Translations under genes and position numbers: made by a program
The notes under the pieces: model-generated
Seen by the model: only the letters and a program-made list of their open reading frames with translations
What the model was told of the DNA's origin: nothing
The model's database searches: none
Shown: piece after piece, positions 3,273 through 52,548 of the stretch
How positions within the stretch are numbered: position 1 is the first letter of the stretch
How the letters are laid out: the number at the start of each line of letters is the position of its first letter
Source: Desulfobacteraceae bacterium
Lineage (GTDB): Bacteria > Desulfobacterota > Desulfobacteria > Desulfobacterales > JAABSP01
Direction of reading: 5' to 3'
DNA: 64,000 nucleotides
Assembly (NCBI GenBank): GCA_011389855.1
Contig: JAABTM010000003.1
Location: 6 to 64,005, forward strand

Positions 3273-4412
3273 TCACTGAATCGGCGTCCGGATCCGGGCG
3301 CCGGGATAGATGTCCCTGTTGGACCGGGTGAGGACCACCGTGGCGGTGCTCGGCCCCACCCGCAGGACGACCACGTCTCCCAGGACCACCGGCGGCAGCG
3401 TGACCAGGTTGCCGAGATCGGGGTTCGGTTTGGCGGCCTCCTGGTAAACGATGTTGTATCGTTGGCCAGGTGCGACGCCGTTCTCCCCGCCGCGGTCGAT
3501 GAAAACCACCGAGCCTTCCCCCAGAAGCCGCCCTCCTTCTTCGGATGAAACGATGGTGGCCTCCAGCCCCTCTACGCTGTCGGCGACGGGGATCTTGGGG
3601 GAGAGTTCGTTGTAGGGCATGAGGCGCTCGCCGATCCGGATGGTCCGGAAGGACGACCGGATGACGCCCATGGCGAATTCGGGCTCCAGGCGGCTGATCT
3701 CCAGCCTGCCGGTGAGGATGTGCTGGTATCCGATCCGCCGGTCCGTTTTCGGATCGCGGATGGGACCGACGGTCTTATAGATCGTATATTCCCGGCCCAT
3801 CACCAGCGGCGCGTCCCCTGCCGGCCGGATGTAAACCGTGTCCCGCTCGTATATCATCTGCTTGGCGTCTCCCTGAACCTTGAAGATCACGCCGTGAGCC
3901 TCCACGGGTTGACGTCGAACGAATCCGATCCGATTGATGGGGGAGAAAGTGAGCAGCGTTTCCCGCCTCTCCATCGGGCCTTCCTCGAATCCGCCCGACG
4001 GGGCCGTCGCCGGGGCGGGTTCGCCCATGTCGACCCGGGGTTGCGGGGTCGGCCGGGAGGGGAGGGGTTCGGCGGCGATGACGCCCCGGTCCGGGTAGAT
4101 CAGGAGCCGTTGTCCCGGGTAGATCAGGTGGGGGTTGAGGATGGGAACCTCCCGGGCGTTGCGCTGCCAGAGTGCGGGCCATTTCCAGGGGGTTTTCAGG
4201 AACCGCTCGGAGATGTCCCAGAGGGTGTCCCCTTTCTGGACGGTGTAATAAAAGGCTTCGTCGTTATAGGGTTCGACCCCCGCCGGCGGCGGTTCGCCGT
4301 CCTTGAAGGGCATTGACGACTGGGCCGATGCGGCGCCGGCGGCCCAGGCAAGGACGATGAGCGCCGCGAGGCGTAAAAGGAGGCGTCGATTCGGAATATG
4401 CGTCTGTTTCAT
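3273..4412 (-). CDS. Secreted LysM peptidoglycan-binding domain protein
   Basis: Signal peptide MKQTHIPNRRLLLRLAALIVLAWAAGAASA. LysM motif YTVQKGDTLWDISERFL..NPHLIYPGQRL. Confidence 0.8.
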   Translation of the reverse strand: MKQTHIPNRRLLLRLAALIVLAWAAGAASAQSSMPFKDGEPPPAGVEPYNDEAFYYTVQKGDTLWDISERFLKTPWKWPALWQRNAREVPILNPHLIYPGQRLLIYPDRGVIAAEPLPSRPTPQPRVDMGEPAPATAPSGGFEEGPMERRETLLTFSPINRIGFVRRQPVEAHGVIFKVQGDAKQMIYERDTVYIRPAGDAPLVMGREYTIYKTVGPIRDPKTDRRIGYQHILTGRLEISRLEPEFAMGVIRSSFRTIRIGERLMPYNELSPKIPVADSVEGLEATIVSSEEGGRLLGEGSVVFIDRGGENGVAPGQRYNIVYQEAAKPNPDLGNLVTLPPVVLGDVVVLRVGPSTATVVLTRSNRDIYPGARIRTPIQ

Positions 4413-4575: not shown

Positions 4576-6312
<1,737 letters not shown>

Positions 6313-13435: not shown

Positions 13436-13584
13436 ATGGACCTTCTTCATGTGTCTGATCTCCATTTTGGAACAGAGGCGGATGCACGGACGTGGTCGGG
13501 CCAGTTGTCCGAAGATTTGGCCAACGGTCTGGGCTGTAAGCGACTGGACGCGCTGATCCTCTCGGGGGATATCGCGACGCGATC
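13436..13584 (+). pseudogene. N-terminal remnant of a calcineurin-like metallophosphoesterase
   Basis: MDLLHVSDLHFG...LDALILSGDIA supplies MPE motifs I and II only. The frame then runs into AT-rich nonsense. Confidence 0.55.
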
Positions 13585-13818
13585 TTGTATGTTGAATTCC
13601 TACATGAAGCTGATGAAAATAGGAAAGAAGAAATCAGGAACATTGTCCATTTTGAATTGCGTGAAGAAGATAATCAGTTGCCTATTACTTGTGGTGCATC
13701 ATGGTATAATAAAAAGGAACGCATTAAATTGGGGGAGCTTGGTAGAAAATTTGCTTATACCCGGGATAGCAATTTTGGATTTCGTTGCGCCAGAATCCAT
13801 CGCCCCCTGCCATCTTAA
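13585..13818 (+). pseudogene. C-terminal remnant of an FGE-sulfatase (SUMF1/FGS)-type domain
   Basis: It ends ..CGASWYNKKERIKLGELGRKFAYTRDSNFGFRCARI, the usual C-terminal GxSW...R...GFRCAR signature. The frame differs from the MPE remnant and no intact N-terminal part is present. Confidence 0.45.
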
Positions 13819-13983
13819 CCACTTTATGCTTGGTCGTCTTTGCGAATGGCTGTCAGAACCGCTGATTACCCTGATGCCGCGGATGAACCAGGATGATCCA
13901 CCCACATCTGCGTCATCATGTCCATCATGATTATCTGCGGTTCTGACATTTTGGCTGTCTGAACCCGGATGGCCGGGATTCAA

Positions 13984-14012
13984 GGATTTTCAGGATGAAT
14001 CTGCTGAAATCC
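13984..14012. promoter_or_regulatory. Imperfect inverted repeat upstream of the yefM-like gene (possible operator)
   Basis: GGATTTTCAG-N10-CTGAAATCC, located 27 nt upstream of ATG 14039. Confidence 0.35.
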
Positions 14013-14038
14013 TGGTTATCCTCCAATAAGGAGATTTT

Positions 14039-14323
14039 ATGCAGAAAATAGAATTCAAGCAGCTAACTCAAGACTGGAACGCCATCTTGAGCAGCGTCAT
14101 CGATGACCAGGAACCTATCACGGTTTCCATGGGAAAAGACAAAGAACTGGTCATCATGGATGCGGAGGATTACAGAAGCTTGATGGAGACTTTCCATCTG
14201 TTGCGCAGCCCGGACAACGCGGCTCGGTTGAGAGAAGGAATGCGCCAACATCAGACGGGCGTGAAAAAAGAGATGATGGACCGCATCCGGCAAATCGCTT
14301 GGCCCGAGGAGGAACTGCGATGA
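14039..14323 (+). CDS. Phd/YefM-family type II antitoxin
   Basis: PITVSMGKDKELVIMDAEDYRSLMETFHLLRSPDNAARL is a classic YefM core. AAGGAG RBS at 14028-14033. Confidence 0.85.
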   Translation: MQKIEFKQLTQDWNAILSSVIDDQEPITVSMGKDKELVIMDAEDYRSLMETFHLLRSPDNAARLREGMRQHQTGVKKEMMDRIRQIAWPEEELR

Positions 14324-14931
14324 GCGAACCGCTGCCCGACAAAACCAAATATACACAGGAAGAATACCTGGCGCTCGAAGACGGGGCCGACTACAAGAGC
14401 GAATACTGTCAGGGCGAAATTTTCGCCATGGCGGGCGGCAGCCGGAATCACAGCGTCATCTGCGTCAACGTCATCCGGCGGCTCAGCGAAGCGGTCGATG
14501 ACAAGGACTGCATTGTTTTCGACGGCAACATGAAACTGGATATCCATAAAGCCAATGCGATCCTGTACCCCGATTCGATGGTGGTGTGCGGAGAGGTTGA
14601 ATTTTATCAAAACAGGACCGACGCCGTCGGAAACCCGTCACTGATCGTGGAGGTGATTTCTCCGAGCACCGAATCCTTCGACCGCGGCAAAAAATTCCAG
14701 CTTTACCGGCGCATCCCGTCATTTCAGGAATACCTGCTCATCTCTCAATATTCGCCGACGGTGGAACGGTTTTTCAAGCAAGCCGAAAACCGTTGGCTCT
14801 ATTCCGTGTCAAATGGGTTGGATGGGCGGGTGGCCATTCAATCTGTCGGGTGTGAACTGTCCCTCGATCATATTTACCGGAAGGTCGCATTCGACGACGC
14901 CAATGGAAACCACCATCCGCAACAAAGATAA
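14320..14931 (+). CDS. Uma2 (DUF820) family endonuclease
   Basis: YTQEEYLALEDGADYKSEYCQGEIFAMAGGSRNHS...PSLIVEVISPST...K..YRRIPSFQEYLLI is a PD-(D/E)xK Uma2 pattern. ATG 14320 overlaps the yefM stop (ATGA). Confidence 0.85.
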   Translation: MSEPLPDKTKYTQEEYLALEDGADYKSEYCQGEIFAMAGGSRNHSVICVNVIRRLSEAVDDKDCIVFDGNMKLDIHKANAILYPDSMVVCGEVEFYQNRTDAVGNPSLIVEVISPSTESFDRGKKFQLYRRIPSFQEYLLISQYSPTVERFFKQAENRWLYSVSNGLDGRVAIQSVGCELSLDHIYRKVAFDDANGNHHPQQR

Positions 14932-14985
14932 ATTCCCATCGGTTCAATGCATTAACAAAAAATGTCCATCGAAAAAACAAGACCA

Positions 14986-15014
14986 TTGACAATTTTACCC
15001 GATCATTTTATATT
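14986..15014 (+). promoter_or_regulatory. Sigma-70-type promoter for the tRNA-Ser gene(s)
   Basis: TTGACA (14986-14991), a 17-nt spacer, then TATATT (15009-15014), about 28 nt upstream of the tRNA 5' end. Confidence 0.6.
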
Positions 15015-15041: not shown

Positions 15042-15135
15042 GGAGAGGTGGCCGAGTGGCTGAAGGCCCCGCTCTCGAAAAGCGGTAACCTGGCTAAAAC
15101 CGGGTTCGTGGGTTCGAATCCCACCCTCTCCGCCA
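15042..15135 (+). tRNA. tRNA-Ser (anticodon CGA)
   Basis: Acceptor GGAGAGG/CCTCTCC, anticodon loop CT-CGA-AA, long variable arm, T-arm GTGGGTTCGAATCCCAC and an encoded CCA. Confidence 0.95.
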
Positions 15136-15224: not shown

Positions 15225-15318
15225 GGAGAGATGACCGAGTTGGCTGAAGGTGCACGACTGGAAATCGTGTGCGCTGTTAATAGCGGCGCCGAGGGTTCGA
15301 ATCCCTCTCTCTCCGCCA
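15225..15318 (+). tRNA. tRNA-Ser (anticodon GGA)
   Basis: Acceptor GGAGAGA/TCTCTCC, anticodon loop CT-GGA-AA, long variable arm, T-arm GAGGGTTCGAATCCCTC and an encoded CCA. Confidence 0.95.
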
Positions 15319-19255: not shown

Positions 19256-19318
19256 CGCGCGGGAGTATACTCCCACGCTACTATGTGTCGTCCCTACGGG
19301 ACTGAAATTGTAAAAATG
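19256..19318 (+). repeat. Half copy of a REP/MITE-like element (left arm plus loop)
   Basis: cgcgcgggagtatactcccacgctactatgtgtcgtccctacgggactgaaattgtaaaaatg is near-identical to 21341-21403. Confidence 0.85.
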
Positions 19319-21340: not shown

Positions 21341-21451
21341 CGCGCGGGAATGAATTCCCACGCTATTATGTGTCGTCCCTACAGGACTGGAATTGCTTGA
21401 AAATGTCCTGTAGGGACATGGTAAAATAGCGTGGGAGTTCACTCCCGCGCG
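21341..21451. repeat. Complete palindromic REP/MITE-like element (about 111 bp)
   Basis: Two inverted arms share three blocks: CGCGCGGGA, TCCCACGCTATT and GTCCCTACAGGAC. They surround a 17-nt centre (tggaattgcttgaaaat). The element lies between convergent rpsT and lptE. Confidence 0.85.
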
Positions 21452-45282: not shown

Positions 45283-45358
45283 TGGTGATCCCAACGGGAC
45301 TCGAACCCGTGTTTCCGGCGTGAGAGGCCGGCGTCCTAGGCCACTAGACGATGGGACC
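45283..45358 (-). tRNA. tRNA-Glu (anticodon CUC)
   Basis: 76 nt: GGTCCCATCGTCTAGTGGCCTAGGAC..., anticodon stem CCGGC/GCCGG with loop CT-CTC-AC, T-arm ACGGGTTCGAGTCCCGT and an encoded CCA. Confidence 0.95.
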
Positions 45359-48050: not shown

Positions 48051-48056
48051 AAAAAA

Positions 48057-48144
48057 GGGACAGAGGGACAGAGGGACAGAGGGACAGAGGGACAGAGGGA
48101 CAGAGGGACAGAGGGACAGAGGGACAAAGGCACAAAGGCACAAA
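48057..48144. repeat. 8-bp microsatellite: (GGGACAGA)x8, then GGGACAAA, then GGCACAAA x2
   Basis: Read directly from the sequence; it begins 7 nt after the radA stop. Confidence 0.95.
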
Positions 48145-48173
48145 GGGTGGGCAGGGAAACGCTTTGGGCTTTC

Positions 48174-48218
48174 GTCCACTTTGTCCACCATGTCCACTCA
48201 GTCCACAACGTCCACCCT
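48174..48218. repeat. Tandem 9-bp array GTCCAC-NNN x5
   Basis: gtccacttt gtccaccat gtccactca gtccacaac gtccaccct. This is the same motif and period as 2108-2143, and it lies 70 nt upstream of rlmE. Confidence 0.9.
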
Positions 48219-48904: not shown

Positions 48905-49639
48905 ATGTCAGGGCACAGCAAATGGTCTACCATTCGACATAAGAAAGGGGCCGCGGACGCCAAGCGCGGCAAGATATTCACTAAGCTGATCAAGGAGATT
49001 ACGGTGGCCGCCCGAATGGGGGGCGGCGACCCCGAGAGCAATCCCCGTCTGCGGACCGCCGTGGCGGCGGCCAAGGCCGAGAACATGCCCAAGGACAACA
49101 TCGAGCGGGGCATCAAGAAAGGAACGGGAGAACTCGAGGGCGTCAACTACGAGGAATCTACCTACGAGGGATACGGCCCGGGCGGAGCGGCGGTCATGCT
49201 AGAGTCCCTCACGGACAACAAGAACCGGGCCGTGGCCGATATCCGGCACATTTTCAGCAAGAACGGGGGCAACCTCGGCGAGAACGGCTGCGTGGCCTGG
49301 ATGTTCGACAAAAAGGGCTACATCAGCGTGGAAAATTCAGCCGCGGACGAAGAAACCCTCATGGAAGCGGCCCTGGAAGCCGGGGCCGAGGATGTACGGG
49401 AAGATGGGGCCAGTTTCGAGGTAATCACCGCCCCCGAAGACCTGGAAGCGGTAAAGGAAGCCATCGAGGATGCGAACATCGCCTTCGTCGACGCCGAAGT
49501 GACCATGCTCCCCCAGACCACGGCCAACCTCCAGGGAAAAGAAGCCGAGCAGATGATGCGGCTCATGGAATCGCTGGACGACTGCGACGATGTCCAGAAG
49601 ATTTATACCAATGCGGATATTCCGGAGGAGTATATATAA
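48905..49639 (+). CDS. yebC: YebC/PmpR-family transcriptional regulator
   Basis: [37 protein letters not shown]. Start trimmed to ATG 48905. Confidence 0.95.
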
Positions 49640-49739
49640 GGGATGCGGGATGCTGCCGCGGGATATGGATCGTTGGGAATGATTATCACAAGGATCTCGA
49701 AGTTGGGCAACTATATCGTGTCGCGCTATCTGATATAAA

Positions 49740-50345
49740 TTATTTGATGGTCTGCTTATTCAGTTCGTTGACCAGTTTGTGGACCGTTGTTGATGGGTTG
49801 TCTCTTTCTGGCGAATGGTCTGGATATGAGTTTAGCAATTTATCCGCATTTTTTATCGCTGTTTCTTGTAGGGCAAGAAGATGATCGTACATATGTGGGG
49901 AATTCTTCTTATATTCAAAGCCCAATCTTTCAGTTAGCATTCTTTTATATTGTGTTCGGTCTGTTGCTGAATCATGGTAGTGGAAATGCAGCAAATACCA
50001 AATTTCAAAAGCTTGATTTGAATATGCAACATTAATGCCATTGCTTCTCGCTAATGCCAAAGCGGCGTTAAAATTACTTGGAGGGAAAGAATCACGGTCG
50101 AATACACACCACGCAGAATCATACTTCTTATCCGCCTGCTTAATCTCTTCTATAGCTATTTCAACCAAGCTAACAGTGTTTGCTCCGACACCTTTTACAT
50201 CTATATCAAAAACATTTTTTGGCGCTCTAAATGCCTCAAAATATTGTGGTTCTGTTTTCTGGCCTTCACAGACAATAAGAAATCTTTTCAGTGTCTCCCT
50301 GAAGTTTGTTTTTCGTTTAAAGGGATTACGCCCTTTTGTCCTCAT
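49740..50345 (-). CDS. RloB-family protein (AbiLii-like)
   Basis: FLIVCEGQKTEPQYF, WCVFDRD, and VAYSNQAFEIWYLLHF are RloB signature blocks. Confidence 0.8.
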   Translation of the reverse strand: MRTKGRNPFKRKTNFRETLKRFLIVCEGQKTEPQYFEAFRAPKNVFDIDVKGVGANTVSLVEIAIEEIKQADKKYDSAWCVFDRDSFPPSNFNAALALARSNGINVAYSNQAFEIWYLLHFHYHDSATDRTQYKRMLTERLGFEYKKNSPHMYDHLLALQETAIKNADKLLNSYPDHSPERDNPSTTVHKLVNELNKQTIK

Positions 50346-50348
50346 TTT

Positions 50349-51623
50349 TCAGATCTCCAGACGCTTAATCCCACCAAGGAAAGGAATGGCGCCATATTTT
50401 CCAGCGATGTAATCTTTTCCAAAAGAGGCATCGTTTCTGACTTTAAAATCCACCAAAGAGTATAAAATAGTTGCTCCGTATTTATCCTTTTCCATGAACC
50501 ATATTTGATCTCGACGCAGAAAAGTATTGTCCAATAAATTCGTATCGTGAGTTGCAAATACTAATTGTGCATTATTTGGATTCAAATCTTTGTCATGGAA
50601 CATTTGTACTATTGCTCGTGTGATTATCGGATGAAATCTGGCATCTAATTCATCTACTATTAACAACATACCTTTTTGGAATACATCCAATAATGGACCA
50701 GAAAAAGAGAACGCTTTTCTTGTACCATCAGATTCATGATGATCAAGCTCAAATGTTTCTTTCCCGATATATTCGCCTTTGTCGTTAAATTTTTTATGTG
50801 TAGTATAAATTGTCGTCTTATCTCCGCCTTGCTCAATCAGGAATTTAGATAAAGGTTCTGGTAGATCTTTGGGGAGAATATCTTTAGTATAAGGCGAGCG
50901 CTCTATATTCAAATCAGAAATACCTAAATCGAATTTCTGAATGAAGGCTAAAATATTATTTTTAACGTCTGTTTTTTCAATCTGTTTTAAAGTAAAAGAC
51001 CTATATCCCATATCTTCTAAGCCTGATATAACACCACAGTTTCGGAACCACATTAATATTTCAAAGGAAATTTTGCCGTTCCATTGAGCGCATACAGAAA
51101 GGAATAATGCATTCGGTCTCGTTTTAGCTTCTAATCCTTTTCCTTCTGAAAATGCCCCTTTTTTTAAGGTTATTCCTTTATTTGTTCTAAAAAACAGGTT
51201 AACTTCTCTTTCCTTCGTACGATAAAGCCATTCTGAATGAATTTTATCCTTATCAATTTTAAACCCATATCTATAGCTCATGTCGTTTATGATAAAGATT
51301 ATTTCGAAATAGGACGGCTCTTTCTCTGTGGATGTGCTCAGGCGATAGCTTTCGACCTCTATATTTTCAGCTACTTGAGATTCTTTAGATGAATTGATGA
51401 TAAAGTTGCGCATGAACTTAAACGCTTTTATTAAATTGCTTTTTCCACTTGCATTAGGACCGTATAGCGCAGTGGTTTTAACTAATTTAATAGATTTTTT
51501 GTATTCAAATATGTTGCTATTGTCTAAGCCTTTGTTTTTTGAAGTTAAATTTGCCGATACCATGCTAAATCTAACAATATCTTTGAAAGATTTATAGTTT
51601 CCTACACTAAATTCGACCAACAT
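50349..51623 (-). CDS. AAA_15/AAA_21-type (ABC-like) ATPase, RloA/AbiLi-like
   Basis: MLVEFSVGNYKSFKD, Walker A YGPNASGKSN, Walker B LLIVDELDARFHP, and H-loop VFATHDTNLL. The stop lies 3 nt before the RloB start. Confidence 0.85.
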   Translation of the reverse strand: MLVEFSVGNYKSFKDIVRFSMVSANLTSKNKGLDNSNIFEYKKSIKLVKTTALYGPNASGKSNLIKAFKFMRNFIINSSKESQVAENIEVESYRLSTSTEKEPSYFEIIFIINDMSYRYGFKIDKDKIHSEWLYRTKEREVNLFFRTNKGITLKKGAFSEGKGLEAKTRPNALFLSVCAQWNGKISFEILMWFRNCGVISGLEDMGYRSFTLKQIEKTDVKNNILAFIQKFDLGISDLNIERSPYTKDILPKDLPEPLSKFLIEQGGDKTTIYTTHKKFNDKGEYIGKETFELDHHESDGTRKAFSFSGPLLDVFQKGMLLIVDELDARFHPIITRAIVQMFHDKDLNPNNAQLVFATHDTNLLDNTFLRRDQIWFMEKDKYGATILYSLVDFKVRNDASFGKDYIAGKYGAIPFLGGIKRLEI

Positions 51624-51768
51624 TTTTGATCACCGCGTCCTTATCTGGTTGTTTCGTGAAAAAATCACGTAAAGATCAATATATAGAACCAGATGATAAT
51701 CTGTAAACAACTAAATAAAGAAAAAGCCAAAAAAATGTTGTTATCGAAAGAATTAATTCTAATCGTGA

Positions 51769-52548
51769 TTATCTGCCATCCATCTGAATCATATCCGTCC
51801 CCGGCGGCACGTCGAGATCGAAAATATCGTCCGGGATGGGCTGGTCGAAGGTAAAATCGGCCAGGGTGATGCGAGTGGTGTCGCCGTAGTCGTTGTGGGT
51901 GGTCACCTGGTCCACGATGAATTTGTCTTTGGATACGGCAAGATAGACCGCAGCGATGTCGTATTCCTTTTGTTTGGGAACGAGTTTCAGGCGGTAGTGG
52001 CCGGGTTCTGCGTCAGCCTCGGGTTCCAGGCTTACGTCGAAGCTCTTTCGGATCTCCCGGATGTCCGACAGGAAGCTGGCCCCTTTGCCGTCCCCGAAAT
52101 AGGCCGGGGCCCGGCCGATCATCACCTGGTTGTCTTCGGGCCGCCAGATCCACAGGGTTTCGCCGTCGGTGAGGATCACCTGCCGTTCCGGCTGTTCGTA
52201 CTCCCACCGCATCCGGTCCGGCGGCCGGACAAAGAGGTTGCCGCTGGCCGTGTCGGTGATGTCCATGGCCGCCAGGGTCGATTCCTGATAAAAGTTTGCG
52301 GAAAAGCCCTGGCCGGTGTAGCGGTCCTCGACCTTGTCGAGGATGTCGTCCAGGGGCAATTGTTTTTGGGGCGTCGTTTCATCGGTCGTCGGCGGCGGCG
52401 AGTCCGTCTCCCGACCCCAGGCGGGGGTCAGGGCCAGCAGGAACCCCAGCATCGCCAGGGCGAAAAGGGGTAAAAGGGAAGGGAAAGATCTCCGGCTAAA
52501 TCGCGCGGATGCCGCAGGACAGCAGTTTTTGGGATAAGACGTCGTCAA
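51769..52548 (-). CDS. LolA-like outer-membrane lipoprotein carrier protein
   Basis: Signal peptide; F.A.F.QE...A......SG.L.V..P.RMRWEY..P....I..DG..LWIW.P. The true start is probably downstream of 52548, because the ORF overlaps the upstream gene by 53 nt. Confidence 0.7.
   Translation of the reverse strand: MTTSYPKNCCPAASARFSRRSFPSLLPLFALAMLGFLLALTPAWGRETDSPPPTTDETTPQKQLPLDDILDKVEDRYTGQGFSANFYQESTLAAMDITDTASGNLFVRPPDRMRWEYEQPERQVILTDGETLWIWRPEDNQVMIGRAPAYFGDGKGASFLSDIREIRKSFDVSLEPEADAEPGHYRLKLVPKQKEYDIAAVYLAVSKDKFIVDQVTTHNDYGDTTRITLADFTFDQPIPDDIFDLDVPPGTDMIQMDGR

What the first reader, a model, noticed from the sequence alone, without database searches (positions are those of the whole stretch)
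49688..51765. AT-rich two-gene islet: ABC-like ATPase plus RloB-family protein (AbiL-like / PARIS-like defence candidate)
This is the sharpest compositional break in the window. It separates yebC from a lolA-like gene and is bracketed by an 8-bp direct repeat (TGATTATC). It holds only two tightly packed genes, with a 3-nt gap between them. The first encodes a 424-aa AAA_15/21-type ATPase (GPNASGKSN; LLIVDELD; ATHD). The second encodes a 201-aa RloB-family protein (CEGxKTEPxYF; WCVFDRD). The RloB family includes AbiLii of the lactococcal AbiL abortive-infection system and the restriction-linked rloA/rloB pairs. The split ATPase plus small putative nuclease layout also parallels PARIS (AriA/AriB) and OLD-family systems. 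Trigger, target and mechanism for this pair are unknown. It appears here as a stand-alone module, with no R-M genes or mobility genes.
Basis: partly seen in the sequence, partly recalled or inferred. Interest (0 to 1): 0.65.

Follow-up and report, generated by a model that had tools for sequence, protein, structure and literature searches.

The report
AbiL-type two-gene phage-defence islet
A 2.1-kb AT-rich insert between the housekeeping genes yebC and lolA carries an ordinary member of the known AbiL family of anti-phage systems (an ABC ATPase plus an RloB-type nuclease), acquired by horizontal transfer and since kept under purifying selection.

Summary
Two tightly packed minus-strand genes (424 aa and 201 aa, 3-nt gap) sit in a 35% GC islet within a 61% GC window, between convergent yebC and lolA.

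PADLOC's own models call them AbiLi (1e-100) and AbiLii (6e-31). Pfam gives AAA_21 and RloB. All ABC-ATPase motifs and the Toprim-style Glu / DxD residues are invariant across relatives.

Eight other Desulfobacterales loci lack the islet at the same conserved junction. A sister lineage has it at the same site (95% and 90% amino-acid identity), with dS like the flanks and dN/dS of 0.07 and 0.20. So it was acquired once, then inherited vertically as a functional module.

The 8-bp "bracketing" repeat is chance (31% of shuffles) and is absent from the sister locus. There is no tRNA, integrase or R-M gene nearby.

The ATPase→RloB pair is conserved in 73 of 80 viral-contig loci. The RloB family has more than 10,000 clusters at 50% identity.

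This is a new member of a known kind (AbiL). It is not PARIS. AbiL's trigger and target remain unknown in the literature.

One side finding: a co-varying dyad (TGxGA-N5-TCx'CA) just downstream of the module's own promoter travels with this clade.

The parts
49688..51768 (.). AT-rich islet (about 2.08 kb, GC 0.351) inserted between the 3' ends of the convergent genes yebC and lolA. The right edge is the lolA stop codon. The left edge is approximate and lies where similarity to the sister locus's host-side sequence resumes.
   Evidence: Composition. Junction comparison with L029. Absent from the same junction in L004-L012.
50349..51623 (-). abiLi: a 424-aa ABC-type (AAA_21, Rad50/SMC-like) ATPase, the presumed sensor/regulator.
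   Evidence: PADLOC AbiLi 1.1e-100 and Pfam AAA_21 1.4e-40. The AF2 model matches Rad50, PtuA and JetC heads with Foldseek E down to 7e-10. dN/dS is 0.07 against the sister locus.
51435..51461 (-). Walker A / P-loop, GPNASGKSN (AbiLi residues 55-63).
   Evidence: Invariant in the alignment of 37 relatives. Coordinates checked.
50721..50735 (-). ABC signature-like motif, ESDGT (AbiLi residues 297-301).
   Evidence: E297, S298, G300 and T301 are invariant. Coordinates checked.
50643..50666 (-). Walker B, catalytic Glu and D-loop, LLIVDELD (AbiLi residues 320-327).
   Evidence: D324, E325 and D327 are invariant. Coordinates checked.
50544..50555 (-). H-loop, ATHD (AbiLi residues 357-360).
   Evidence: T358, H359 and D360 are invariant. 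Coordinates checked.
49740..50345 (-). abiLii: a 201-aa RloB-family protein, the presumed Toprim-type metal-dependent nuclease effector. Its ATG lies 3 nt after the abiLi stop codon.
   Evidence: Pfam RloB 2.1e-49 and PADLOC AbiLii 5.6e-31. AF2 model pLDDT 83. dN/dS is 0.20.
50250..50270 (-). CEGQKTE motif (AbiLii residues 26-32). E27 follows strand beta-1 directly and is the putative Toprim catalytic Glu. E32 is also invariant.
   Evidence: Alignment of 32 relatives. Model secondary structure. hhalign places it on OLD's LLVEGKTE.
50091..50105 (-). VFDRD motif (AbiLii residues 81-85), a putative Toprim DxD metal-binding motif at the end of strand beta-3.
   Evidence: D83 is invariant and D85 is conserved in at least 90% of sequences. 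Beta-3 spans residues 77-83 in the model.
51678..51707 (-). Sigma-70-like promoter of the operon: TTTACA, 18-nt spacer, TATATT.
   Evidence: Consensus scan, 10 of 12 matches. The sequence is conserved in L029, and equivalent boxes sit at the same position in copies from other hosts. The consensus scan alone is not above the shuffle expectation.
51655..51669 (-). Dyad CGTGA-TTTTT-TCACG, 8 nt downstream of the -10 box and 46 to 32 nt upstream of the ATG. It is a clade-conserved, co-varying element, either an operator or a 5'-terminal mRNA hairpin.
   Evidence: Present in 14 of 18 close-clade loci, against 1.7-3.7% of control windows. Covariation score 0.271 against 0.127 in shuffles (0 of 500 reach it).
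49640..49739 (.). 100-nt spacer between the abiLii stop and the yebC stop. No consensus intrinsic terminator was found in it.

Best explanation
The islet is a horizontally acquired AbiL-type anti-phage (abortive-infection) operon that has since been inherited vertically. It is transcribed from its own promoter on the minus strand and makes two proteins. AbiLi is a Rad50/SMC-like ABC ATPase with a complete catalytic motif set. AbiLii is a small RloB-family protein whose invariant Glu (E27) and DxD (D83-x-D85) sit where Toprim nucleases bind their catalytic metals.

The most likely mechanism is inferred by analogy with the split ABC-ATPase/Toprim systems whose mechanism is solved (PARIS) and with P2 Old. 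An AbiLi oligomer holds AbiLii in an inactive complex and acts as the infection sensor. A phage-derived cue, together with ATP binding or hydrolysis, releases or activates AbiLii. AbiLii then cuts an essential nucleic acid, with tRNA or other RNA favoured over DNA. This arrests translation and aborts the infection at the cost of the infected cell.

Shown here: family identity, intact catalytic motifs, conserved gene pairing and order, acquisition by insertion, and purifying selection on both genes.

Inferred: complex formation, the trigger, the substrate and the abortive outcome.
For: Family identity. PADLOC AbiLi 1.1e-100 and AbiLii 5.6e-31. Pfam AAA_21 and RloB, both far above their gathering thresholds.

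The ATPase is competent. Walker A, Q180, ESxGT, D324-E325, D327 and H359 are invariant in 37 relatives. The model matches Rad50, PtuA, JetC and SMC heads, E 7e-10 to 1e-6.

The nuclease is plausible. E27, E32, D83 and E114 are invariant and D85 is conserved in at least 90% of sequences. The model has a beta-alpha-beta-alpha-beta-alpha-beta core with E27 after beta-1 and DxD at the end of beta-3. This is the layout described for RloB as a Toprim member in PMC12065111. hhalign aligns CEGxKTE with OLD's VEGKTE.

Obligate pair. An RloB ORF lies directly downstream on the same strand in 73 of 80 viral-contig loci at 27-46% ATPase identity, and in every metagenomic context fetched that could be judged.

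Mobile defence behaviour. GC is 0.35 against 0.61. The islet is absent from the conserved lolA/yebC junction in 8 relatives. Relatives occur on small mobilizable plasmids and on prophage-type contigs, inside a Wadjet locus, and next to a STAND-like NTPase.

Functional. dN/dS is 0.07 and 0.20, with dS comparable to the flanking genes.

Literature. L. lactis AbiL aborts phage infection after transcription (Deng 1999, via PMC13064643). F. nucleatum AbiLii is toxic in E. coli (PMC3985639). AbiL is grouped with PARIS, OLD and MADS as ABC ATPase plus Toprim systems (PMC11464382, PMC12409363). AriB and P2 Old are tRNases (PMC11464382; bioRxiv 10.64898/2026.07.10.737580).
Against: No experiment exists for this locus or its clade.

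My own tests did not recover the Toprim fold independently. Foldseek against the PDB gave no significant hit. A profile search of PDB sequences gave none. hhalign against the OLD Toprim region gave only P = 0.023 and probability 2%.

The sequestration model is borrowed from PARIS. In the one published test, F. nucleatum AbiLi did not neutralise AbiLii toxicity when supplied from a second plasmid (PMC3985639). The predicted AbiLii and AriB structures superimpose poorly (PMC13064643).

The substrate (RNA or DNA) is unknown.

Retention over a dS of about 0.2-0.35 is longer than is often assumed for defence islets, so an addiction-type explanation cannot be excluded.
Confidence: 0.75

Rival explanations
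1. It is mainly a toxin-antitoxin (addiction) module. AbiLii is the toxin and AbiLi is an AAA-type antitoxin. It persists in the chromosome by post-segregational killing or selfish stability, with no dedicated anti-phage role.
For: NetFlax places AAA-ATPase plus Toprim_OLD/RloB pairs in the type II TA network and validated AAA-neutralised toxins (PMC10440598). AbiLii from F. nucleatum is toxic (PMC3985639). The pair has been retained stably at one chromosomal site across a species split. A dyad overlaps the promoter/TSS region, as in autoregulated TA operons.
Against: The founding member was isolated as a phage-resistance determinant (Deng 1999, via PMC13064643). AbiLi did not neutralise AbiLii in the one direct test (PMC3985639). 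Toxin-antitoxin behaviour and abortive infection are not mutually exclusive, since PARIS is both (PMC13064643). A complete and invariant ATPase motif set is more than a passive antitoxin needs.
Confidence: 0.12
2. It is a PARIS (AriA/AriB) system. It senses anti-restriction proteins such as Ocr and cleaves tRNA-Lys.
For: It has the same split architecture. A PADLOC model labelled AriA hits the ATPase at 2.8e-35.
Against: That 'AriA' model matches the same residues (51-365) and has the same 304 positions as Pfam AAA_21, so it is generic. The AbiLi model scores 335 bits against 121. No AriB or DUF4435 model hits the small protein in PADLOC or Pfam, even at E up to 10. AbiLii is 201 aa, whereas AriB is about 35 kDa. 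The literature treats AbiL and PARIS as separate branches (PMC11464382 Fig. 6c; PMC13064643).
Confidence: 0.02
3. It is a restriction-linked RloA/RloB accessory pair that works together with a type I R-M system.
For: The RloB family was named from genes embedded in Campylobacter type I R-M loci (PMC10440598, PMC12065111).
Against: No R-M gene lies within about 6-8 kb on either side here or in the sister locus. None is adjacent in the other contexts fetched.
Confidence: 0.02
4. It is a housekeeping DNA-repair pair, an ABC ATPase plus a Toprim protein in the manner of RecF/RecR, and native to this lineage.
For: RecF and Rad50 are among the structural matches of AbiLi. The pair is under strong purifying selection.
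Against: GC is 26 points below the genome. The pair is absent from 8 related Desulfobacterales at the same junction. Its taxonomic distribution is patchy, with plasmid and prophage copies. It is embedded in defence loci elsewhere.
Confidence: 0.02
5. It is a decaying remnant of foreign DNA with no current function.
For: Foreign composition and no known host role.
Against: Both reading frames are intact in two lineages. dN/dS is 0.07 and 0.20 at a dS of 0.22-0.36. All catalytic residues are retained. The promoter region is conserved.
Confidence: 0.01

Closest known systems
AbiL (AbiLi/AbiLii) abortive-infection system of Lactococcus lactis plasmid pND861, as modelled in PADLOC
   Same: A two-gene operon in the same order: an AAA_21 ABC ATPase followed by a small RloB-family protein. 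Both PADLOC family models hit strongly. It is stand-alone.
   Different: It is chromosomal, in a 61% GC uncultured Desulfobacteraceae-type bacterium, rather than on a lactococcal plasmid. Direct sequence identity to the lactococcal proteins was not measured. No Lactococcus record appeared among the rows and the top-10 genera shown for plasmid tblastn hits to AbiLii at E <= 1e-3. The phenotype is untested.
PARIS (AriA/AriB)
   Same: A split ABC-ATPase sensor plus a Toprim-type nuclease effector. It is the best mechanistic template: a hexameric ATPase sequesters the nuclease, a phage protein triggers its release, and the nuclease acts as a tRNase (PMC11464382).
   Different: The effector families differ (RloB against DUF4435 Toprim) with no detectable sequence similarity (PMC13064643). 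In the AF2 model, the AbiLi stretch between the Q-loop and the signature motif is compact alpha/beta with no long helix. The review places the AbiLi/AriA differences in this extension region (PMC13064643). The trigger is unknown.
OLD-family nucleases (P2 Old, class 1; Gabija GajA, class 2)
   Same: An ABC ATPase plus a Toprim nuclease with EGKTE-like and DxD motifs. hhalign aligns RloB's CEGxKTE with Old's VEGKTE. P2 Old is an abortive tRNase (bioRxiv 10.64898/2026.07.10.737580).
   Different: In OLD proteins the two domains are fused in one polypeptide of about 590 aa. Here they are two genes. The profile similarity between the nuclease domains is marginal (P = 0.023).
RloA/RloB of Campylobacter type I R-M loci, and the RloB effector domains of Menshen NsnC
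   Same: The same Pfam family, RloB (PF13707). It is classified as Toprim with a conserved Glu and DxD (PMC12065111).
   Different: No R-M genes and no Menshen genes (NsnA/B/C) are present here.
Septu PtuA / retron-Eco7 PtuA, and MADS Mad3/Mad4
   Same: Related AAA_15/21 ABC ATPases. PtuA is among the top structural matches. Mad3 gives a weak PADLOC hit. Mad4 (DUF4276) is the other newly recognised Toprim family (PMC12065111).
   Different: The partner effectors are HNH (PtuB) or DUF4276 rather than RloB, and those are multi-gene systems.

Membership tests
AbiL defence system (PADLOC definition) | A protein that matches the AbiLi model | tested here: met
   PDLC02335 AbiLi at E 1.1e-100 and 334.9 bits. 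This is the top hit, about 214 bits above the next model.
AbiL defence system (PADLOC definition) | A protein that matches the AbiLii model | tested here: met
   PDLC02337 AbiLii at E 5.6e-31. It is the only PADLOC model that hits this protein.
AbiL defence system (PADLOC definition) | The two genes are adjacent and co-oriented, with the ATPase first | tested here: met
   3-nt gap on the same strand. The same order holds in 73 of 80 related viral-contig loci.
AbiL defence system (PADLOC definition) | Confers abortive phage resistance | not testable with these tools
   Requires cloning and phage challenge. Only L. lactis AbiL has phenotype data (PMC13064643).
Pfam RloB (PF13707) | Score above the gathering threshold over the full-length domain | tested here: met
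   168.8 bits against a cut-off of 31.5, covering profile positions 1-195 of 195. All 32 aligned relatives also match.
Toprim superfamily (for AbiLii) | A conserved Glu just after beta-1 and a DxD at the end of beta-3, in a beta-alpha-beta-alpha-beta-alpha-beta core | tested here: met
   E27 is invariant, D83 is invariant and D85 is conserved in at least 90% of sequences. The model has beta-1 at 22-26, beta-2 at 48-52, beta-3 at 77-83 and beta-4 at 105-109, with helices in between. The layout is as described in PMC12065111. Strand order in the sheet was not checked.
Toprim superfamily (for AbiLii) | Significant structural or profile similarity to a solved or curated Toprim domain | tested here: inconclusive
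ABC ATPase, AAA_21 / Rad50-SMC-like (for AbiLi) | Walker A, Q-loop, signature motif, Walker B with catalytic Glu, D-loop and H-loop | tested here: met
   G55-N63, Q180, E297-S-x-G-T301, D324-E325, D327 and H359 are all invariant in 37 sequences. Pfam AAA_21 scores 140.7 bits against a cut-off of 27.
ABC ATPase, AAA_21 / Rad50-SMC-like (for AbiLi) | The ABC head fold | tested here: met
   Foldseek matches Rad50 (4ncj, E 7e-10, probability 1.00), PtuA, JetC and SMC1A heads. 59 matches have E <= 1e-3. The model is moderate in quality (pLDDT 72.5), and residues 22-47 and 365-424 have low confidence.
PARIS (AriA/AriB) | An effector of the AriB type (DUF4435 Toprim, about 300 aa) | tested here: not met
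   No AriB model in PADLOC and no DUF4435 model in Pfam hits the 201-aa protein.
PARIS (AriA/AriB) | An ATPase that matches AriA better than other AAA_15/21 defence ATPases | tested here: not met
   The model labelled AriA scores 120.8 bits against 334.9 for AbiLi. It matches the same residues and has the same profile length as the generic Pfam AAA_21 model.
OLD family nuclease (classes 1-2) | ATPase and Toprim domains fused in one polypeptide (PF13175/PF13304 plus PF20469) | tested here: not met
   There are two separate ORFs, and no PF20469 hit. The PADLOC Old and GajA models give only weak partial hits on the ATPase, E about 3e-6.
Restriction-linked RloA/RloB | Embedded in or adjacent to a type I R-M (hsd) locus | tested here: not met
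   The neighbours within about 4-6 kb on either side are housekeeping genes. The sister-locus gene calls show no hsd genes.
Type II toxin-antitoxin module | The toxicity of one partner is neutralised by the other | not testable with these tools
   Only indirect literature exists: AbiLii from F. nucleatum is toxic and was not neutralised by AbiLi supplied in trans (PMC3985639).
Genomic island delivered by site-specific integration or transposition | An integrase or transposase, a tRNA target, terminal inverted repeats, or a genuine target-site duplication | tested here: not met
   There is no tRNA within 4 kb and no bracketing inverted repeat. No mobility gene is present. The 8-bp direct repeat is at chance level and is absent from the sister locus.

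The most novel reading that the evidence does not exclude
The clade-specific dyad TGxGA-N5-TCx'CA, which lies just downstream of the module's own -10 box and co-varies across hosts as different as Desulfobacterota, cyanobacteria and prophages, is a self-carried operator or 5'-hairpin through which the AbiLi-AbiLii complex controls its own expression. If so, neither protein would need a classical HTH, and binding might use the Lys/Arg-rich N-terminus of AbiLii or the Rad50-like DNA-binding surface of AbiLi. Sensing of infection would then be coupled to loss of this autoregulation or to phage-induced transcription shut-off, as in toxin-antitoxin-type Abi systems. In addition, AbiLii would be a tRNA-directed Toprim RNase like AriB and P2 Old. 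This would give the first regulatory and mechanistic handle on AbiL, a system known since 1997 with no known trigger or target.
Probability: 0.15. Interest if true: 0.55.

Novelty: new member of a known kind. Interest (0 to 1): 0.27.

Why it matters
The locus itself is ordinary. AbiL-type pairs are found by standard tools (PADLOC), and the RloB family has more than 10,000 clusters at 50% identity.

Its modest value has three parts:

- It is a clean natural case of a defence pair inserted into a conserved housekeeping junction without any mobility signature. It was then kept for a whole species split under strong purifying selection, while staying 26 GC points below its host.
- AbiL remains mechanistically unsolved, with trigger, substrate and stoichiometry all unknown. 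Well-conserved, compact members such as this one are reasonable candidates for biochemistry.
- The co-varying promoter-proximal dyad that travels with this clade is a testable lead on how such modules are regulated.

Tried and rejected
1. The 8-bp TGATTATC repeat as a target-site duplication. Rejected: it is at chance level and not conserved in L029.

2. tRNA-, inverted-repeat- or integrase-mediated insertion. Nothing found.

3. Independent confirmation of the Toprim fold:
- Foldseek against the PDB gave no significant hit.
- Foldseek against the viral library found only another RloB-like protein.
- Profile and single-sequence searches of PDB sequences gave nothing.
- A lenient Pfam scan of 32 members gave only RloB.
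- hhalign of alignment A1 against the single P2 Old sequence gave nothing.
- hhalign of diverse RloB sequences against the OLD Toprim alignment was marginal.

4. A clean empty site in a close relative. The nearest genome without the islet (L003) has a rearranged flank. The MAG contig L002 breaks exactly at the lolA stop. The metagenome scan found nothing closer than 53% LolA identity. The 'empty' junctions therefore come from more distant Desulfobacterales (L004, L005 and L006-L012).

5. NCBIfam gave no meaningful hit for either protein.

6. PARIS membership was considered and rejected (see the membership table).

7. The RNA-hairpin reading of the dyad. The fold energy is unremarkable (-5.7 kcal/mol, z 0.15), so I leave operator versus hairpin open.

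8. A consensus intrinsic terminator after abiLii. None found.

9. One context look-up (P0008) returned gene calls but no DNA.
Full report
OBSERVATION. Two minus-strand ORFs, 50349-51623 (424 aa) and 49740-50345 (201 aa), are separated by 3 nt (TGA-AAA-ATG). The stretch 49688-51768 has GC 0.351 against 0.612 for the rest of the window. The next-lowest independent 2-kb stretch is 0.512. All quoted peptide motifs are present at the expected codons. Pfam confirms the flanks as YebC (48905-49639, +) and LolA (51769-52548, -). The wider neighbours are SLT_2, RadA, RlmE/FtsJ, a MORN-repeat protein, an unknown protein and thioredoxin, with no R-M or mobility genes. The word TGATTATC is present on both sides, at 49680-49687 and 51766-51773. 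It is not evidence of anything. A shared word of 8 nt or longer between the two boundary zones arises in 31% of shuffles and in 351 of 619 equally spaced control zone pairs. The word occurs twice more in the window. Neither copy is conserved in the sister locus.

WHAT THE PROTEINS ARE. PADLOC's own models give AbiLi (E 1.1e-100, 335 bits) for the large protein and AbiLii (5.6e-31, the only hit) for the small one. Pfam gives AAA_21 (140.7 bits against a cut-off of 27, over the full-length profile) and RloB (168.8 bits against 31.5, full length). NCBIfam has nothing useful. Neither protein has a relative of solved structure that sequence search can detect.

In an alignment of 37 relatives at 51-73% identity, every ABC-ATPase catalytic element of AbiLi is invariant. 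These are Walker A G55-N63, Q-loop Q180, signature-like E297-S-x-G-T301, Walker B with catalytic base D324-E325, D-loop D327 and H-loop H359. An AlphaFold2 model (pLDDT 72.5) matches Rad50, Septu PtuA, Wadjet JetC and SMC heads, with Foldseek E from 7e-10 to 1e-6.

For AbiLii, an alignment of 32 relatives shows invariant E27, E32, D83 and E114, and D85 conserved in at least 90%. The model (pLDDT 83, pTM 0.81) has a beta-alpha-beta-alpha-beta-alpha-beta core followed by a helical domain. E27 comes directly after beta-1 and D83-x-D85 lies at the end of beta-3. This is the arrangement that defines Toprim domains and that a 2025 analysis reports for RloB (PMC12065111).

I could not confirm the Toprim fold independently:
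- Foldseek against the PDB returned no hit with E <= 1e-3.
- Foldseek against viral models returned only another RloB-like protein, from a myovirus (E 6e-13, TM 0.80).
- Profile searches of PDB sequences and lenient Pfam scans found nothing beyond RloB.
- A profile-profile comparison of 145 diverse RloB sequences with the C-terminal region of 115 OLD-family proteins gave only P = 0.023 (probability 2%). It did place LIVCEGxKTE on OLD's LLVEGKTE and VFDRD within a few residues of OLD's DxD.

HOW IT GOT THERE. LolA-based retrieval places the window in an uncultured Desulfobacteraceae-type lineage. The convergent arrangement of lolA against yebC-rlmE-radA is conserved in eight Desulfobacterales loci. 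None of them encodes AbiLi or AbiLii. In L004 and L005 the two genes are 250-265 bp apart. In L006-L012 the slot holds nadA.

A sister lineage was sampled in two other metagenomes (L029, L030). The MAG contig L002 shows the same MORN and LolA identities to the window, and it breaks exactly at the lolA stop. This sister lineage carries the same islet at the same junction. AbiLi is 94.6% identical and AbiLii 89.6%, with GC 0.34 and 0.39 against flanks of 0.60-0.67. Nei-Gojobori estimates give dS of 0.36 and 0.22 for the two islet genes and 0.11-0.30 for five flanking genes. dN/dS is 0.07 for AbiLi and 0.20 for AbiLii.

So the islet was acquired once, before these two lineages split. It has been inherited vertically since. 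Both genes are under purifying selection and have not ameliorated in composition.

There is no tRNA within 4 kb (the nearest is tRNA-Glu at 45283-45358), no bracketing inverted repeat and no integrase. The nearest genome without the islet (L003) has a rearranged flank. A metagenome scan found no closer relative. An exact empty site in a close relative is therefore still missing.

THE FAMILY. Both proteins belong to very large families. For AbiLi, 7,801 proteins scored E <= 1e-10 among the capped set of candidates. For RloB, 10,224 cluster representatives at 50% identity scored E <= 1e-3, and nearly all are stand-alone proteins of about 200 aa. The closest named relatives come from Deltaproteobacteria/Desulfococcaceae MAGs (about 68%) and from cyanobacteria (about 52%).

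The pair is a unit. In 80 viral-contig loci with ATPase relatives at 27-46% identity, an RloB ORF follows directly on the same strand in 73. Three of the seven exceptions end at the contig edge. Every metagenomic context fetched shows the same order. In L120 the contig ends 326 bp past the ATPase, with no RloB gene called.

The contexts are not syntenic and often look like defence islands:
- between UbiD and PadR (L032/L033);
- beside HicB and Uma2 (L034);
- next to a 1,108-aa STAND-like NTPase (L117);
- embedded between Wadjet JetC and JetD, beside a Phd/PIN module (L124);
- in L119, with RloB truncated by an IS200-type transposase.

Relatives also sit on small mobilizable enterobacterial plasmids and fall into PHROG families of unknown function. 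The module is AT-rich (0.34-0.45) relative to 0.56 GC surroundings elsewhere too.

CIS ELEMENTS. The 145-nt region upstream of abiLi is well conserved with L029. It contains a TTTACA-18-TATATT promoter-like site at 51707-51678. Eight nucleotides downstream of the -10 box lies the dyad CGTGA-TTTTT-TCACG (51655-51669).

The same arrangement recurs in copies from unrelated hosts: a -35/-10-like pair followed by TGxGA-N5-TCx'CA about 45 nt before the ATG. A perfect dyad is present in 14 of 18 loci whose ATPase is at least 38% identical, and one-mismatch versions occur in two more. Control 120-nt windows have it at 1.7-3.7%. With only the closing GA...TC fixed, on-target hits have 5-8 of 8 positions paired, while the off-target hits at about -99 (L032, L033) have 3.

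On a centre-aligned set of 16 sequences, pairs 4-18 (UA 13, CG 3) and 6-16 (UA 10, AU 4, CG 1) switch by double changes. The covariation score is 0.271 against 0.127 in shuffles (0 of 500 reach it). Slid controls are at most 0.128. There is some ascertainment bias, because the set was found by looking for the motif.

The leader's RNA fold is weak (-5.7 kcal/mol for the hairpin, z 0.15), and five positions are invariant in sequence. A dyad-symmetric protein-binding site that overlaps the transcription start is therefore at least as likely as a 5'-terminal mRNA hairpin. More distant relatives (27-37% identity) mostly lack the element.

MECHANISM. The shown steps are family identity, catalytic competence on paper, obligate pairing, foreign origin and selection. 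The rest is inference from the related systems whose mechanism is solved.

In PARIS, a hexameric ABC ATPase sequesters a Toprim nuclease. A phage protein triggers ATP-dependent release, and the nuclease cuts tRNA (PMC11464382, PMC12409363). P2 Old, the fused form, is reported as an abortive tRNase (bioRxiv 10.64898/2026.07.10.737580). L. lactis AbiL blocks phage development after transcription (Deng 1999, via PMC13064643). F. nucleatum AbiLii is toxic in E. coli (PMC3985639).

I therefore favour the following scheme. AbiLi acts as an ATP-dependent sensor and keeper. AbiLii acts as a metal-dependent nuclease effector whose release arrests the infected cell, more likely by RNA or tRNA cleavage than by DNA cleavage.

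Three caveats apply. AbiLi did not neutralise AbiLii in trans in the one published test (PMC3985639). AbiLii and AriB superimpose poorly (PMC13064643). The authors of the recent review state that it is still open whether AbiL, RloAB and similar pairs work like PARIS (PMC13064643).

COMPARISON AND VERDICT. The locus meets every computable criterion for AbiL. It fails the criteria for PARIS (no AriB-type effector), for fused OLD nucleases, and for restriction-linked RloAB (no hsd genes). It is a new member of a known kind, in a phylum where such systems are little studied. It would be flagged by standard defence-finding pipelines.

Interest is low to moderate. The locus is ordinary. AbiL as a class still lacks a known trigger and substrate, and the travelling, co-varying promoter-proximal dyad is a small, testable new lead.

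Noticed in passing
window 51655-51669 (minus strand), with the promoter-like site at 51678-51707: Dyad CGTGA-TTTTT-TCACG just downstream of the -10 box of abiLi. The same TGxGA-N5-TCx'CA element, with compensatory changes at two pair positions, sits at the same place in copies of this AbiL clade from unrelated hosts. Whether it is an operator or a 5' mRNA hairpin is undecided.
   Followed up: yes
window 48056-48147: A perfect-looking octamer tandem repeat, AGGGACAG x 11.5 (96% matches), in the radA-rlmE intergenic region. It is followed by an 18-nt repeat of 2.4 copies at 48173-48215. It generates the spurious 'PSVPLSLC' repeat ORFs seen.
   Followed up: no
window 19258-19303 and 21343-21388: Two matches to the Rfam family Acido-Lenti-1 RNA (RF01687), at 37.0 and 44.6 bits against a gathering score of 37, about 2 kb apart on the + strand.
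   Followed up: no
window 13500-15000, with tRNA-Ser genes at 15042-15135 and 15225-15318: The second-lowest GC patch in the window (0.47-0.53) lies directly beside two tandem tRNA-Ser genes (CGA and GGA anticodons). It may be another small acquired segment at a tRNA site.
   Followed up: no
L002 (MAG contig CAZZBE010000412.1), position 3638-3642: The contig shows the same MORN and LolA identities to the window as L029/L030, so it is probably the same sister lineage. It ends exactly at the lolA stop codon, where the AT-rich islet begins in L029/L030. This suggests that binned assemblies break at, and lose, such islets.
   Followed up: partly
L006-L012, between lolA and yebC: In six more distant Desulfobacterales loci, the slot occupied here by the AbiL pair holds an ORF of about 300 aa that I read as nadA (quinolinate synthase), by eye and not checked against a profile. 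In L004 and L005 the slot is empty (250-265 bp). The junction is therefore a recurrent site of gene gain and loss.
   Followed up: partly
L124 3001-4888: An AbiLi/AbiLii pair (54% identical ATPase) is embedded between a Wadjet JetC-like gene and a JetD gene, next to a Phd/PIN toxin-antitoxin pair.
   Followed up: no
L119 1753-2391: The RloB gene of a 66%-identical pair is cut down to 91 aa, and a Y1 (IS200/IS605-type) transposase gene overlaps its 3' end. This looks like a natural knock-out of the effector with the ATPase left intact.
   Followed up: no
L029 about 5040-5105 (between abiLii and yebC): The sister locus has an extra GC-rich segment of about 62 nt, with self-complementary GGCGCCC...GGGCGCC arms, that the window lacks at the islet/yebC boundary.
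   Followed up: no
window 50352-50531 (AbiLi residues 365-424): The C-terminal 60 residues of AbiLi are among the most conserved in the family (RRDQIWF.EK...LYSL...NDASF.KDYI.GKYGAIPF.GG) but have pLDDT below 50 in the monomer model. They are a candidate oligomerisation or AbiLii-binding region.
   Followed up: no
window 52496-52548: The longest lolA ORF (259 aa, TTG start) overlaps the end of the MORN-repeat gene by 53 nt. Gene calls in the sister locus give a 226-aa LolA, so the true lolA start is probably further downstream.
   Followed up: no
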